From Cyclobacteriaceae bacterium (lineage in GTDB: Bacteria; Bacteroidota; Bacteroidia; Cytophagales; Cyclobacteriaceae), in NCBI GenBank assembly GCA_022841475.1, contig JALHRJ010000019.1:13733-77732 (forward strand): 64,000 bases of DNA, written 5' to 3'. Below, piece by piece: positions 4,635 to 64,000 of the stretch (position 1 is the stretch's first letter; each line of letters begins with the position of its first letter). The notes below the pieces were generated by a model, which saw only the letters and a program-made list of their open reading frames with translations, was not told where the DNA came from and made no database searches. Position numbers and translations under genes: made by a program.

Positions 4635-6002
4635 TTAATTCATACTTGCTGGCGATGTAGCTGGCCGAACATCTTCCAGGTCTACACGTCTCACAATCCT
4701 TGCTCTGCGAAATGGAGTCTTACTCCATATTTCAACCAACGCCTGTTGGGCAAGTTCATATTCATAAAATGTACCGGCTAACCAGGTAGTTTCACTATCC
4801 TCATGTACTATCCGATGAGCTCCGTAAAATTTAACCAAGGGATCGTTCAACAAAACTGAATCCATTTCAAGATCCATACCCAGATTGATTGAATAAATTA
4901 TTGAGTCGGTTCGGGTTGAATAATCCTTTTCATTCACCATCACATTGTGCTTCGTTAACAACGCTCTCGAGTCTTTGGTAAATAATGTAAACGCGTCTCG
5001 TAACGTCTTCGATTTTACAAATAGCGTATCGCCTTCGAAATACCGAAGTGGCAGCACCGTAAATAGTTCATTGGATTTCTTAACCCACTCCAGTTCATAT
5101 TCGGCATTGTGGATGGAAGTGGTTGATACTGTGTCTGTCACTATTTTCTGAAGGTCAACCCACAGCATGGCACCACCATCGCGGTAACGCGGCCGCTGAC
5201 CCGAAATAAAATTACCTAGGGAATAGGCTATCAGCTGATCCTCTTTTTGGTTCCAAACCATAGGTTGCAATACATGCGGATGTGCACCGATGACCAACTT
5301 TGCACCTTCGCGAAAACATAGCGCTGCCAATTTTTTTTGTTCCGCATTTGGTAAACTTTGATACTCCGCACCCCAATGCATAAACACAATGATGGCGTCA
5401 GTCTGCTGTGCTCTTGCTTTCGCCATATCGACCTTGATGGCAACGGTATCAATCAGATTTACAATGTTGGGCTTTGTTACCGGAATGCCATTGGTGCCAT
5501 ATGTGTAATTAAGCAAGGAGAAACGAAATCCATTCTTCTCTATTTGCAAGGGATATATACTGGCGCGCTCTGCAGAATCTCTGAACGTGCCTGTGTGCTG
5601 TATTTGCAAAGAATCTAAAACGCGAATGGTACGCTCCACTCCTTTCTTCCTTCTATCAAGGCTGTGATTATTGGCAGTAACCAACACATCAAATCCGAGT
5701 CGCTTCAACTGAACTGCCAACGCATCAGGTGCACTAAATTGAGGGTATCCTTTATAGGGAGCTCCGGCTAACGTGAGTTCCAAATTACCAATGGTTAAAT
5801 CTGCCGAGCGTAAAATAGGTGCTGCATGCTCAAAGCACGCTGAGTAATCATACTTTTTATCGGTTGAGTTATACGCTGCTGCAATATTGGAGTCGTGCTG
5901 CATGATGTCGCCTACAAACAGCAACGAGATACGGGTTGTATCCTGCGCGGCAACTGCAAGGCTTACAAATTGAAAAATAAATAACAACCGGAGTTTATGC
6001 AT
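4635..6002 (-). CDS. CapA family (PGA_cap metallophosphoesterase-like) protein with C-terminal extension
   Basis: GDIMQH, GNLE, ANNHSLD, HWGAEY, GAHPHVLQ, YSLGNF motifs. Confidence 0.88.
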   Translation of the reverse strand: MHKLRLLFIFQFVSLAVAAQDTTRISLLFVGDIMQHDSNIAAAYNSTDKKYDYSACFEHAAPILRSADLTIGNLELTLAGAPYKGYPQFSAPDALAVQLKRLGFDVLVTANNHSLDRRKKGVERTIRVLDSLQIQHTGTFRDSAERASIYPLQIEKNGFRFSLLNYTYGTNGIPVTKPNIVNLIDTVAIKVDMAKARAQQTDAIIVFMHWGAEYQSLPNAEQKKLAALCFREGAKLVIGAHPHVLQPMVWNQKEDQLIAYSLGNFISGQRPRYRDGGAMLWVDLQKIVTDTVSTTSIHNAEYELEWVKKSNELFTVLPLRYFEGDTLFVKSKTLRDAFTLFTKDSRALLTKHNVMVNEKDYSTRTDSIIYSINLGMDLEMDSVLLNDPLVKFYGAHRIVHEDSETTWLAGTFYEYELAQQALVEIWSKTPFRRARIVRRVDLEDVRPATSPASMN

Positions 6003-26152: not shown

Positions 26153-26614
26153 TTATTCCAATGGTTTAAAAATATATCGTTCATCATACTCGATATCAAA
26201 CTGATCTAAAAGTTCACGATACTCATCTAAAAATGTTTGCTTGGCATGATGAGTTTCCTGATTCTGTATATACTTGATTACGTCTGCTATCTGAGACTTA
26301 CTATACGAAAAAGCTCCAAAGCCCGATTGCCATTCAAAATGTGATGAAATAAATTTTTTATCATTAATCCATTTAGATGAATTTGCTTTTACATCCTGCA
26401 TTAAATCAGAAAGCGATTGAGTGGGGCGCATTCCAAAGAAAATGTGAACGTGATCTTCCACACCATTAATAATTAGCAACTTATGTCCATTCTGCTGAAT
26501 GATTCCCGTTATATACTTGTACAATTCGTCTTTCCAATCTTTCCCAATTACACACAATCGATACTTCACCGCAAAAACGGCTTGAATATGAATCTGTGTG
26601 TATGTGTTAGGCAT
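26153..26614 (-). mobile_element. tnpA: IS200/IS605-family HUH (Y1) transposase, no tnpB
   Basis: HUH motif EDHVHI; WQSGFGAFSYS; catalytic Tyr in VIKYIQNQ; 153 aa. Confidence 0.92.
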
Positions 26615-28411: not shown

Positions 28412-28544
28412 GAGGCTGACCAAAAAGTCACAATATCAATCGAAGTGTCATTCCGGGCTTGACCCGGAATCCCGAAATTGTGCGTACTCCTCGGGATCGC
28501 GGGTCAAATGCCCGCGATGACTGAATGACTTTTGAGACAGCCTC
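28412..28544. mobile_element. MITE-like element: outer inverted repeats enclosing a REP-like hairpin doublet
   Basis: GAGGCTGACCAAAAAGTCA (28412-28430) / TGACTTTTGAGACAGCCTC (28526-28544); inner GTCATTCCGGGCTTGACCCGGAATCC and GGATCGCGGGTCAAATGCCCGCGATGAC; second copy at 63844. Confidence 0.75.
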
Positions 28545-43847: not shown

Positions 43848-43868
43848 CCTACCTGACCGGTAGGCAGG
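43848..43868. repeat. 21-bp palindromic mini-element
   Basis: CCTACCTGACCGGTAGGCAGG; ends match the insert at 63877-63910. Confidence 0.6.
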
Positions 43869-56000: not shown

Positions 56001-56386
56001 TGCAAGCCGGCTTATCGCGCTCCGCCAGCTGGCGGAGGGAGGAAAGTCCGGGCAACACAGAGCATCGTACTTCCTAACAGGAAGGTCCGCCAGCTGGCGG
56101 AACAGATAGTGCCACAGAAAACAAACTACTCTTGCCTTAGGCGAGGGAAAAGGTGAAAAGGCGGGGTAAGAGCCCACCGCTTTGATGGTGACATCAAAGG
56201 CATGGTAAACCTTACGAGTTGAAAGGCCAAATAGGTCACGCTCACGAAAGTGATTAGCTGCTCGCTAATAGTTTATCTGGCGTGATTGGGTAGGCTGCTT
56301 GATCCTGATGGCAACGTCAGGGCTAGATAAATGATAGGCACCCTGACGGAACCGTCAGGGAACAGAACCCGGCTTATAGGCTTGCA
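56001..56386 (+). ncRNA. rnpB: RNase P RNA (type A)
   Basis: GAGGAAAGTCCGGGC, AGTGCCACAGAAA, GGTAAACC, AACAGAACCCGGCTTA conserved regions; P1 TGCAAGCC/GGCTTGCA. Confidence 0.95.
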
Positions 56387-62704: not shown

Positions 62705-63820
62705 ATGATAATCGGAGTTCCCAAAGAAATTAAGAATAATGAAAACCGGGTAGCTGTTACACCCGCAGGTACCCAGGAGTTTGTGCGAAAAGGTCATACC
62801 GTATATGTGCAAACCAAAGCTGGTGAAGGCAGTGGCTTTAGTGATGAAGAATACATTGGAGCCGGAGCCAAGATTCTTCCCAAAGCAGAAGATGTATTTA
62901 GCATTGCCGAAATGATTATTAAGGTGAAAGAGCCGATTGAACAAGAATATGGTTTGATTAAAAAAGACCAATTGGTATTTACCTATTTCCATTTTGCATC
63001 CTACGAACCATTGGCTCATGCCATGATTAAAACGGGTGCTGTGTGTCTGGCTTATGAAACTGTTGAGCGTCCTGATAGGAGTTTACCCTTGCTCATCCCG
63101 ATGTCAGAAGTAGCGGGCCGCATGGCCATTCAGGAAGGAGCAAAATATCTTGAGAAACCATTAAAAGGAAGAGGCATATTGCTCGGAGGTGTACCCGGGG
63201 TTATGCCAGCCAAAGTTTTGATCTTAGGTGGTGGTGTTGTTGGCAGCAATGCCGCGAAAATAGCAGCCGGCATGGGTGCTGATGTAATTATTACAGATGT
63301 AAACCTCAATCGTCTCCGTTACCTCGATGATGTTATGCCAAAGAATGTTCATACCATGGCTTCTAATGATTATGTTCTACGCGAACTGGTTAAGACGCAC
63401 GATTTAATAGTGGGTGGCGTGTTGATTCCAGGAGCCAAAGCACCCAAATTAATTACCCGAGATATGCTTAAAACGATGAGACCGGGCACCGTGTTGGTTG
63501 ATGTTGCAGTCGACCAGGGTGGATGTATTGAAACCTGCAAGCCCACCACACATGAAGATCCGACTTACATCATTGATGATATCGTGCACTATTGTGTTGC
63601 CAATATGCCTGGTGCCGTTCCGTATACATCAACGTTGGCACTTACCAACGCAACTCTTCCCTATGCATTAAAGCTTGCTAATGTAGGTTGGAAAAAAGCG
63701 TGTAAAGACCATGATGATTTACAGAAGGGATTAAATGTTGTGAGTGGCAAAGTTGTTTATAAGGCTGTAGCCGATTCATTTAATCTTCCGTATGTAGATG
63801 TGAAGGAAGTTTTGAACTAA
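62705..63820 (+). CDS. ald: Alanine dehydrogenase
   Basis: IGVPKEIKNNENRV, KVKEP, MSEVAGR, GGGVVG, DVAVDQGG, VANMPGAVP. Confidence 0.96.
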   Translation: MIIGVPKEIKNNENRVAVTPAGTQEFVRKGHTVYVQTKAGEGSGFSDEEYIGAGAKILPKAEDVFSIAEMIIKVKEPIEQEYGLIKKDQLVFTYFHFASYEPLAHAMIKTGAVCLAYETVERPDRSLPLLIPMSEVAGRMAIQEGAKYLEKPLKGRGILLGGVPGVMPAKVLILGGGVVGSNAAKIAAGMGADVIITDVNLNRLRYLDDVMPKNVHTMASNDYVLRELVKTHDLIVGGVLIPGAKAPKLITRDMLKTMRPGTVLVDVAVDQGGCIETCKPTTHEDPTYIIDDIVHYCVANMPGAVPYTSTLALTNATLPYALKLANVGWKKACKDHDDLQKGLNVVSGKVVYKAVADSFNLPYVDVKEVLN

Positions 63821-63843
63821 AGAAATAACTACATGACGAAAAA

Positions 63844-64000
63844 AGGCTGTCTCAAAAGTCTTTCGGTCATCGCGGGCCTGCCTGCGCGTAGCCGCTTCGG
63901 CAAAGGCAGGCATTGACCCGCGATCCAGTTTCTCAAGGTATGATAGGATTCCGGCTCAAGGCCGGAATGACATTTCAATTTTAATTGACTTTTGAGACTG
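63844..64000. mobile_element. Second copy of the MITE-like element, with a 34-bp insert, truncated by window edge
   Basis: AGGCTGTCTCAAAAGTC ... GTCATCGCGGG[34 bp]CATTGACCCGCGATCC ... GGATTCCGGCTCAAGGCCGGAATGAC ... TGACTTTTGAGAC. Confidence 0.75.

What the first reader, a model, noticed from the sequence alone, without database searches (positions are those of the whole stretch)
63866..63926. Direct filled/empty-site pair: 34-bp palindrome inserted in the loop of a REP hairpin
Seen: here GTCATCGCGGG-[CCTGCCTGCGCGTAGCCGCTTCGGCAAAGGCAGG]-CATTGACCCGCGATCC; the sister copy (28494-28521, reverse complement) reads GTCATCGCGGGCATTTGACCCGCGATCC with no insert. The insert (63877-63910) has 7-bp terminal inverted repeats CCTGCCT/AGGCAGG, an internal GCCG-CTT-CGGC hairpin, a G|C junction and no target duplication. 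This is the best internal evidence in the window that such mini-palindromes are insertions that target existing stem-loops.
Basis: seen in the sequence. Interest (0 to 1): 0.72.

Follow-up and report, generated by a model that had tools for sequence, protein, structure and literature searches.

The report
Tiny mobile hairpin inside REP loop
The 34-base palindrome is a real, precise insertion of a very small hairpin element into the loop of a repeated hairpin; the same 34 letters occur almost unchanged in bacteria labelled as about nine phyla, and no enzyme that moves it has been identified.

Summary
Observation confirmed. Window 63877-63910 (CCTGCCTGCGCGTAGCCGCTTCGGCAAAGGCAGG, here "X34") lies between the 5' stem and the loop of a REP hairpin (63866-63926). 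The host is a CGTC/TGTC-tagged REP of the kind described by Di Nocera et al. 2013.

Evidence that X34 is an insertion:
- In this genome 86 of 139 such REP units have empty loops and about 19 carry X34 or its 40-nt sister, in both orientations at the same junction.
- The 22 nearest paralogues of the window's ~165-bp composite all lack it.
- In a conserved non-coding region aligned across 17 species, X34 is present as exactly +34 nt at two sites in some species and absent in others. There is no duplication and no loss. This genome is empty at both sites.

X34 is exact or near-exact in more than 110 contigs whose records name about nine phyla. It is absent from the phage, plasmid and viral collections searched, and occurs in only 14 of 61 genomes of its own genus.

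The loop-targeting reading is partly right. Hairpin loops are about 50-fold enriched and the junction usually lies exactly at a stem end with R^Y flanks. Most sites, however, are other repeats or are not simple hairpins.

The mobilising mechanism is unknown. Y1 transposase and GIY-YIG tests did not discriminate. The closest published analogue is the cyanobacterial small dispersed repeats.

The parts
63877..63910 (+). X34, the 34-nt guest mini-palindrome CCTGCCTGCGCGTAGCCGCTTCGGCAAAGGCAGG
   Evidence: Read. There are 7 exact copies in the genome. The same 34-mer occurs in more than 110 contigs of other genomes.
63866..63926 (+). Host REP hairpin (head GTC, 8-bp stem ATCGCGGG/CCCGCGAT, loop CATTGA, tail CC), interrupted by X34 between stem base G63876 and loop base C63911
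   Evidence: The architecture matches the CGTC/TGTC-tagged REPs of PMC3733652.
63946..63971 (-). Second REP unit of the doublet (on the minus strand GTCATTCCGGCCTTGAGCCGGAATCC), with an empty loop
   Evidence: Elsewhere in the genome this REP type carries X34/X40 in either orientation.
63845..63860 (+). Left outer inverted repeat GGCTGTCTCAAAAGTC of the ~165-bp composite
   Evidence: It pairs with the right arm in the predicted fold. The genome holds 23 exact copies of this arm.
63987..64000 (+). Right outer inverted repeat GACTTTTGAGACTG(CC), which runs 2 nt past the window end
28494..28521 (-). Empty sister REP unit GTCATCGCGGGCATTTGACCCGCGATCC
28423..28543 (-). Sister composite (outer arms plus REP doublet), 77% identical to the filled composite with X34 removed
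   Evidence: C19:42155-42275.

Best explanation
X34 is a gene-less, 34-bp hairpin-forming mobile element. One copy was inserted precisely into the G^C step at the border between the 5' stem and the loop of a pre-existing CGTC/TGTC-type REP hairpin. No target duplication or loss accompanied the insertion. That REP is half of a ~165-bp REP-doublet composite lying downstream of an alanine-dehydrogenase-like gene.

Shown:
- The insertion is precise.
- The empty state is the majority and the ancestral-looking state.
- X34 occurs in both orientations and in many unrelated host sequences.
- It is much younger or more uniform than its hosts.
- It is patchily distributed within its genus and shared between phyla.

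Inferred:
- It is copied in trans, probably as a folded single strand (DNA, less likely RNA), and joined at helix ends (R^Y) by an enzyme that is not encoded next to it.
- Candidates are HUH/Y1 (IS200/RAYT-like) enzymes or small structure-specific GIY-YIG nucleases. Neither is established.
- Its spread between phyla requires horizontal transfer of DNA that carries it.
For: - Paralogous empty sites: 86 of 139 REP units have 5-8-nt loops and about 19 carry X34/X40 at the same stem|loop junction, 12 in one orientation and 7 in the other. Removing X restores the consensus empty REP exactly.
- The 22 closest paralogues of this composite (76-86% identity) all lack X.
- Orthologous evidence: in a conserved non-coding region (own C39:21565-22070), X34 is exactly +34 nt at GCGCG^TGGGC in four species, plus a fifth (L103) that has X34 at this left junction and a deletion to its right. 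It is exactly +34 nt at GATGAG^CGCGG in two rows (L215 of G012, and L104, which is nearly identical and may be the same genome); a third species carries a diverged X34 holding a further 32-nt insert at that site. The sites are empty in this genome and 10 other rows at the first site, and in 12 rows including this genome at the second.
- At that shared site X is 34/34 identical while the 60-nt flanks are 63-88% identical.
- Within this genome X copies are 95% identical, against 72% for near host flanks and 61% for far host flanks.
- Distribution: 14 of 61 genomes of the genus and 0 of 16 other families of the order. Exact copies occur in Bacteroidota, Ignavibacteria/Chlorobiota, Deltaproteobacteria/Thermodesulfobacteriota, Auribacterota, Neomarinimicrobiota, Planctomycetota, Nitrospiraceae, Fibrobacteres and Patescibacteria records, embedded in each genome's own repeats.
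- In the Auribacterota genome the same picture recurs: about 75 empty REPs and 38 with X34/X42.
- Hairpin loops are about 50-fold enriched as sites, and the junction lies at the stem end in 28 of 37 cases.
Against: - No strain-level polymorphism could be observed.
- No mobilising enzyme was identified. Y1 transposase genes occur in all 14 X-bearing genomes but also in 36 of 47 X-free ones, and none is flanked by these repeats. GIY-YIG genes are in all 61 genomes. No recurrent neighbour gene was found in 110 loci. No longer element is bounded by X ends.
- X34 was absent from the viral, phage and plasmid collections, so no vector is known.
- In the Auribacterota genome every copy examined (about 20) has one orientation in one REP type, so much of the copy number there may come from amplification of the REP+X unit rather than from new insertions.
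- Identical X at the same orthologous site in diverged species could also reflect selection or gene conversion rather than repeated insertion.
Confidence: 0.8

Rival explanations
1. X34 has no mobility of its own. It entered a REP once or a few times and was multiplied passively when the REP or composite host was copied, so it is a REP subfamily with an extended loop.
For: In the Auribacterota genome X34/X42 sit in one REP type, and every copy examined there has the same orientation. REP families with alternative self-complementary long loops are described (PMC3733652). In this genome all six X-bearing REP1-type units have the same orientation.
Against: At least 100 distinct flanking contexts are known, including heptamer arrays, unrelated repeats and two orthologous sites in a conserved non-coding region. 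REP2-type units carry it in both orientations. X is 95% identical between copies whose host flanks are 61-72% identical. The nearest paralogues of the window's composite are all empty.
Confidence: 0.07
2. X34 is a functional structured module, such as a protein-binding DNA or RNA hairpin or an RNA stabiliser/terminator extension. It is kept identical by selection and spread between copies by gene conversion rather than by transposition.
For: The 34-mer is extremely conserved across phyla. It is 34/34 identical at one orthologous site in species whose flanks differ by 12-37%. A compensatory G10:C19 to A10:T19 change preserves an inner helix. The fold is stable.
Against: Both orientations occur in the same host position. 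Degenerate copies exist. 47 of 61 congeners lack it altogether. It has no fixed position relative to genes and no recurrent neighbour. No Rfam family matches.
Confidence: 0.1
3. The filled form is ancestral and the 28.5-kb copy and other short-loop REPs are precise deletions of the 34-mer.
For: Palindromes are deletion-prone in bacteria (general knowledge). Precise loss between the G and C would be invisible.
Against: Empty units outnumber filled ones 86 to about 19. Empty REPs of this type exist in genomes and sites that never show X. At the orthologous sites the empty state is found in the majority and in both sequence sub-groups. X also sits in many non-REP contexts.
Confidence: 0.02

Closest known systems
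Small dispersed repeats SDR1-8 of heterocyst-forming cyanobacteria (Elhai et al. 2008, Genome Res 18:1484). The reference is listed in PMC3116915 and PMC3733652. The paper itself is not held here, so its content is cited from memory.
   Same: Both are very small gene-less elements with short inverted ends and a conserved centre. Both are found nested inside other repeats, mini-transposons and tandem heptamer arrays, and sometimes inside one another. Both are inferred to be mobile with no known enzyme.
   Different: X34 is longer (34 nt, with 40- and 42-nt forms, against 21-27 nt). It occurs outside cyanobacteria. It is letter-for-letter shared between records of about nine phyla, whereas SDRs were reported as confined to one coherent cyanobacterial group. 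Its preferred site is the stem/loop border of REP hairpins. Sequence relatedness could not be tested.
CGTC/TGTC-tagged REPs (Di Nocera, De Gregorio and Rocco 2013, PMC3733652)
   Same: The HOST hairpin fits this family: an unpaired (N)GTC head, an 8-bp stem beginning with AT, a short loop, a CC(A) tail, presence in Bacteroidetes and Chlorobi, and no transposase gene flanked by the repeats. The paper also records REP families with alternative long self-complementary loops.
   Different: The guest X34 is not a REP of either tag. The paper does not describe a discrete loop guest shared across phyla. The REP pair here is tail-to-tail inside outer inverted repeats, whereas head-to-head dimers predominate in the paper.
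REPIN/RAYT and IS200/IS605-derived miniature elements (Bertels and Rainey 2011, PMC3116915; Quentin et al. 2018, PMC6006769)
   Same: Both are hairpin-forming, lack a target duplication and presumably use single-strand chemistry. Y1 transposase genes are present in every X-bearing genome of the genus.
   Different: These elements are lineage-specific, mostly vertically inherited, tied to a flanking RAYT gene and inserted in one orientation next to a specific tetranucleotide. X34 is cross-phylum, occurs in both orientations, has symmetric ends and is not linked to any Y1 gene.
Mobile G+C clusters of yeast mitochondrial DNA and Rickettsia palindromic elements (from memory)
   Same: These are short palindromic guests that land in other palindromes, in structural RNA genes and in coding regions without a transposase of their own.
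   Different: They occur in other lineages, have other sequences and in part make target duplications. Their host range is restricted.

Membership tests
CGTC/TGTC-tagged REP (host hairpin) | Unpaired CGTC (or TGTC/CCTC) tag at one end | tested here: met
   GTC is invariant, preceded by G, A, T or C (gGTCAT, aGTCAT, tGTCAT). This matches the degenerate tags allowed in PMC3733652.
CGTC/TGTC-tagged REP (host hairpin) | 8-9-bp stem beginning with complementary A-T pairs, 4-5-nt loop, 3-nt tail close to CCA | tested here: met
   The stem is ATCGCGGG/CCCGCGAT or ATTCCGGS/SCCGGAAT (8 bp). The tail is CC[A/C]. Loops are CTTGA (5 nt) or CTTTGA/CATTGA (6 nt), one longer than in the paper.
CGTC/TGTC-tagged REP (host hairpin) | Mostly head-to-head dimers | tested here: not met
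   In the composite the two units face tail to tail and are enclosed by 16-bp outer inverted repeats.
CGTC/TGTC-tagged REP (host hairpin) | No transposase gene flanked by the repeats | tested here: met
   None of the four Y1 loci checked, of six Y1 matches in this genome, has GTCAT-type REPs or X beside it.
Small dispersed repeats (SDR) of cyanobacteria | 21-27 nt, short inverted repeats around a conserved centre | tested here: not met
   X is 34 nt (31-42 in variants). The general shape is similar.
Small dispersed repeats (SDR) of cyanobacteria | Found nested in other repeats, heptamer arrays, mini-transposons and each other | tested here: met
   Contexts include REP loops, the composite MITE-like element, CGCAAAG and TCGAAAY heptamer arrays, and an X copy holding a further 32-nt insert.
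Small dispersed repeats (SDR) of cyanobacteria | Confined to heterocyst-forming cyanobacteria; sequence identity to SDR1-8 | not testable with these tools
   The paper and its sequences are not held. None of the 80 listed hits was cyanobacterial.
MITE of a DDE transposon | Terminal inverted repeats plus a target-site duplication of fixed length | tested here: not met
   7-bp inverted ends are present but there is no duplication. Removing X restores the empty sequence exactly at paralogous and orthologous sites.
MITE of a DDE transposon | A longer autonomous element with the same ends | tested here: not met
   No pair of X ends 60-6000 bp apart encloses anything except neighbouring full X copies.
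IS200/IS605-type miniature element or REPIN | Linked Y1 (TnpA/RAYT) gene whose presence tracks the repeat | tested here: inconclusive
   Y1_Tnp occurs in 14 of 14 X-bearing and 36 of 47 X-free genomes of the genus. There is no physical linkage.
IS200/IS605-type miniature element or REPIN | Insertion in one orientation 3' of a fixed tetra- or pentanucleotide | tested here: not met
   Both orientations occur at the same REP junction. Flanks share only R^Y and a weak CGNG^C.
Any Rfam RNA family | Match to a curated covariance model | tested here: not met
   Only RNase P reaches threshold in the window. Nothing credible is found at 63780-64000.

The most novel reading that the evidence does not exclude
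X34 and its relatives (X40/X42, the 27-mer CCTGCCTGCGTGACGCAGTCAGGCAGG, and the 16-mer TCCGCC-N4-GGCGGA) may be a class of mobile DNA in which one short hairpin is the whole transposable unit. On this reading the hairpin is joined at helix ends of other folded DNA by a structure-specific enzyme supplied in trans, possibly the multi-copy mini GIY-YIG nucleases seen beside hairpin-bearing tRNA fragments here. It would pass horizontally among at least nine bacterial phyla.
Probability: 0.3. Interest if true: 0.9.

Novelty: new variant of a known kind. Interest (0 to 1): 0.72.

Why it matters
If a 34-nt hairpin can copy itself into helix ends in many phyla, it is among the smallest mobile units known. 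It would also be an unrecognised source of structural change in REPs, non-coding RNAs, tRNA remnants and gene ends.

Its letter-perfect conservation across phyla implies a conserved recognition machinery that has not been identified. Finding that machinery could reveal a new strand-transfer or repair activity.

Practically, such elements break short-read assemblies, since copies sit at contig ends in several of these genomes. They can also be mistaken for functional RNA motifs.

One cultured carrier, Roseivirga thermotolerans CGMCC 1.15111, makes experiments possible.

Tried and rejected
- Same-species contigs: the metagenome scan with the adjacent Ald-like protein gave at best 88-91% amino-acid identity, and the composite is absent there. 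In congeners the orthologous intergenic space is 49-104 bp against about 247 bp here, so the whole composite is lineage-specific.
- Vectors: there are no X34 matches in IMG/VR, INPHARED phages or PLSDB plasmids.
- Neighbour-gene enrichment: none over 110 foreign loci.
- An autonomous element bounded by X ends: none found.
- Microhomology or template-switch origin: flank-to-X matches are no longer than at control sites.
- Y1 transposase and GIY-YIG presence or copy number against X presence in 61 congeners: not discriminating.
- An empty 24-nt frame (CCTGCCTGC-TTCG-GCAAAGGCAGG) that would prove a third nesting level: not found in 54 X-bearing genomes, only 31-mers in one.
- Rfam: no family.
- Literature: no held paper prints the sequence. 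The Elhai 2008 paper could not be opened.
- Strand test by G-U against A-C intermediates: both kinds occur, so it is uninformative.

Full report
**What is there.** The window is C19:13733-77732 of a 5.70-Mb, 282-contig, 41.5% G+C assembly. At 63866-63926 the + strand reads GTCATCGCGGG | CCTGCCTGCGCGTAGCCGCTTCGGCAAAGGCAGG | CATTGACCCGCGATCC. The reverse complement of 28494-28521 reads GTCATCGCGGGCATTTGACCCGCGATCC. I call the 34-mer X34.

Both hairpins are the first unit of a ~165-bp composite. The composite has outer inverted repeats GGCTGTCTCAAAAGTC...GACTTTTGAGACAGCC. These enclose two hairpin units in inverted orientation, and the whole is predicted to fold into one long imperfect hairpin. 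Both composites are intergenic. The filled one lies 25 nt after the stop of a 371-aa alanine-dehydrogenase-like ORF.

**The host.** The host hairpin has an unpaired (N)GTC head, an 8-bp stem that starts with A-T pairs, a 5-6-nt loop (CTTGA, CTTTGA, CATTGA) and a CC(A) tail. This is the architecture of the CGTC/TGTC-tagged REP super-family of Di Nocera et al. 2013 (PMC3733652). That family is reported in Bacteroidetes and Chlorobi among others and is noted for lacking a dedicated transposase. The one departure is that the two units here lie tail to tail inside extra outer repeats.

**Census in this genome.** A strict search (GTCAT + 6-nt stem ... complementary stem + AT) finds 139 units.
- 86 have loops of 5-8 nt.
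- About 19 carry X34 or a 40-nt sister, X40 (CCTGCCTGC-TCCGCCNNNNGGCGGA-TTCGGCAWAGGCAGG).
- In these the guest always lies between the last base of the 5' stem and the first loop base.
- 12 are in one orientation and 7 in the other.
- About 30 further units have long, variable loop fillings of another kind.

Deleting X restores the consensus empty unit exactly, so there is no target duplication and no loss. One C at either end makes the boundary ambiguous by 1 nt.

With X removed, the window's composite has at least 28 paralogues. The 22 best (76-86% identity) all lack any X-like insert. X34 copies are 95% identical to each other, while their host flanks are 72% (14+14 nt) and 61% (66+66 nt) identical, against 54% for random pairs. 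The guest is therefore much younger, or much more uniform, than its hosts.

**Orthologous proof.** Four foreign X34 loci shared flanks with an intergenic stretch in this genome (C39:21565-22070) that is conserved among congeners; it lies in a ~680-nt gap between two ORFs and has no Rfam match. Aligning 17 rows shows two sites.
- Site 1, ...ATGCGCG^TGGGCAAAAAAC...: X34 is exactly +34 nt in four species, including a congener (G008). A fifth, L103, has X34 at the same left junction with a deletion to its right. Ten other rows and this genome are empty there.
- Site 2, ...CCCGGATGAG^CGCGGCC...: X34 is exactly +34 nt in L215 (congener G012) and L104. These two rows are nearly identical and may be the same genome. 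A third species carries a diverged X34 that itself holds a further 32-nt insert.

At site 1 the four X copies are 34/34 identical while the 60-nt flanks are 63-88% identical. Filled and empty states occur in both sequence sub-groups of the region. More than one gain or loss, or gene conversion, is therefore needed (inference).

A consensus fold places site 2 at a loop/stem border and site 1 at the foot of a helix, not in a loop.

**Distribution.**
- The records are labelled Cyclobacteriaceae, Cytophagales, other Bacteroidota, Ignavibacteria, Chlorobiota, Deltaproteobacteria, Thermodesulfobacteriota, Syntrophorhabdus, Auribacterota, Neomarinimicrobiota, Planctomycetota, Nitrospiraceae, Fibrobacteres and Patescibacteria.
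- Nearly all are MAGs. Roseivirga thermotolerans CGMCC 1.15111 is a cultured isolate.
- Binning error cannot explain this. Copies sit in each genome's own repeats, and several genomes hold many copies: Auribacterota 38, one Cyclobacteriaceae MAG 33, Neomarinimicrobiota 10, Planctomycetota 8.
- Identical coordinates tie a congener to the record 'Cyclobacteriaceae bacterium A1-SPW-14', which places this genus in Cyclobacteriaceae.
- In the genus the X family is present in 14 of 61 genomes. Its closest relative at the conserved locus has none and the next has ten. It is in 0 of 16 other families of the order.
- It is absent from 2.9 million viral contigs, 50,697 phage records and 72,556 plasmids.
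- In the Auribacterota genome about 75 REPs of its own type (ATCCCCG-CTTTCG-CGGGGATGAC) are empty. About 25 hold a different 30-nt guest. 38 hold X34 or a 42-nt form, and every copy examined (about 20) has the same orientation.

**Target.**
- Over 106 distinct contexts the base before X is G (71%) or A (21%) and the base after is C (58%) or T (25%). There is a weak C-G-N-G^C preference.
- Perfect stems of at least 7 bp with loops of 10 nt or less enclose 30 of 120 contexts, against 15 of 3000 control R^Y positions.
- Among sites in hairpins, 28 of 37 junctions lie exactly at a stem end, against 64 of 190 in controls.
- Other contexts are tandem heptamers (CGCAAAG, TCGAAAY), other dispersed repeats, a T-rich terminator-like hairpin, and once the 5' arm of a REP stem.
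- Flank-to-X microhomology is not elevated.

The element therefore prefers helix ends, above all the 5' stem/loop border of REPs, but not exclusively. Sequence and structure preferences are confounded.

**Anatomy of the guest.** All forms share the frame CCTGCCTGC...TTCGGCAWAGGCAGG. They differ in an inner hairpin placed directly after the 5' strand of the frame:
- GCG-NAGC-CGC (X34);
- TCCGCC-N4-GGCGGA (X40);
- GCGGAGC-CGGA-GCTCCGC (X42);
- GCGNAGC only (31-mers).

The two candidate folds of X34 are nearly iso-energetic. The G10:C19 to A10:T19 double change favours the nested fold, although it may be a single event. It is seen in at least eight handles, some of which are the same genome reached twice.

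The geometry of 5' strand | guest hairpin | old loop letters | 3' strand repeats the way X34 itself sits in the REP. The 16-mer also occurs about 17 times on its own in this genome, including the two RNase P helices noted by another reader. An empty 24-nt frame was not found in 54 genomes, so a third nesting level is plausible but not shown.

**Mechanism.** Nothing is encoded in 34 nt, and no longer element has X ends. No gene recurs near X.
- Y1 transposases are in every X-bearing congener but also in 77% of X-free ones, and they are not linked to these repeats.
- Small GIY-YIG genes are multi-copy in all 61 genomes, following a lead from earlier notes of this scan.
- These GIY-YIG genes are, however, physically tied to relatives of X. 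At C1:90850-91700 an intact tRNA-Arg(CCG) is followed by tandem mini GIY-YIG genes. Each is bracketed by a tRNA 3' fragment whose T-loop (TTC^GATT) carries the 27-mer CCTGCCTGCGTGACGCAGTCAGGCAGG.
- At C4:116900-117990 a tRNA-Met, two GIY-YIG genes and tRNA fragments carry the 16-mer.
- X34 lies within 200 nt of a GIY-YIG gene in 2 of 110 foreign loci, where about 0.07 would be expected (my estimate).

This makes a structure-specific nuclease a testable candidate, no more. I commit to copy-and-paste of a folded single strand joined at helix ends by a trans-acting enzyme, with horizontal transfer between lineages. Insertion and horizontal sharing are shown. The intermediate and the enzyme are inferred.

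**Comparison with the known.** The closest described thing is the SDR families of Nostocaceae (Elhai et al. 2008, from memory; the paper is not held). These are very small, nested in repeats, heptamers and mini-transposons, and have no known enzyme. X34 differs in size, taxon, breadth and preferred site. REP families with alternative long self-complementary loops are described (PMC3733652) but are not interpreted as discrete guests. No held paper prints the X34 sequence. Earlier notes of this scan describe similar tiny cross-phylum hairpins in other genomes. They are leads rather than evidence, and one of them partly failed a later check.

**Limits.** Most carriers are MAGs. Phylum labels are those of the records. 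The copy-number tallies use exact frame patterns and so miss diverged copies.

Noticed in passing
own genome C39:21565-22070 (locus L204), outside the window: A stretch of at least 500 nt, in a ~680-nt gap between two ORFs, is conserved across the genus and beyond (70-90% identity). It has no Rfam match and contains repeated TTATATAACTGTG motifs. It is a hotspot for several different mini-palindromes (X34, CCCGATAGCTATCGGG, CCTGCCTGTCGGCAGACAGG, and the 16-mer). It may be an undescribed structured RNA or regulatory region.
   Followed up: partly
own genome C1:90850-91700 (locus L266): An intact tRNA-Arg(CCG) is followed by tandem ~90-aa GIY-YIG genes. Each is bracketed by a duplicated tRNA 3' fragment whose T-loop (TTC^GATT) carries the 27-mer CCTGCCTGCGTGACGCAGTCAGGCAGG. 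The 27-mer has the same ends as X34. An N-run (assembly gap) lies inside the array.
   Followed up: partly
own genome C4:116900-117990 (locus L267): A tRNA-Met(CAT) lies next to two mini GIY-YIG genes and four tRNA-derived fragments. In the fragments the anticodon-to-T-arm part is replaced by the 16-mer TCCGCCAACTGGCGGA.
   Followed up: partly
window 56021-56036 and 56086-56101: The same 16-mer TCCGCCAGCTGGCGGA forms two helix tips of RNase P RNA. In relatives these two tips are also often identical to each other but with a different species-specific palindrome (for example CCCCGACTYGTCGGGG in G006 and G015). This suggests overwriting of helix tips by the locally abundant mini-palindrome without a change in length.
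   Followed up: partly
own genome C65:890-8230, C62, C67, C58, C8: About 30 REP units of the same type have long loop fillings with conserved ends and variable centres. One form is C[AG]AGTTAACC...N25...AAAACGCGA (40-46 nt) and another is CAAGC...GGCGCGA (72-74 nt). They are arranged in ~245-bp tandem doublets on C65. Their nature is unexplained.
   Followed up: no
window 26153-26614 (-): A solo 153-aa IS200-like Y1 transposase is flanked by its own hairpins (GTCCCTACGGGAC type). These are unrelated to the GTCAT-type REPs and to X34.
   Followed up: partly
window 43848-43868: The 21-mer CCTACCTGACCGGTAGGCAGG has ends resembling those of X34. Whether it belongs to the X family was not tested.
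   Followed up: no
genome G054 (Auribacterota MAG), e.g. C7:18890-18936: A second loop guest of 30 nt (CTCGAGTTTACACTGAGCGCAGTCGAAGTG) fills about 25 REPs of that genome at the same place where X34 sits in others.
   Followed up: no
locus L105, around position 5559 on the minus strand: One X34 copy lies in what reads like the C-terminal coding end of a gene (...DQLVYQ | X | LYGLTEKEIKIVE). 34 nt is not a multiple of three, so the frame would shift. This was not examined further.
   Followed up: no
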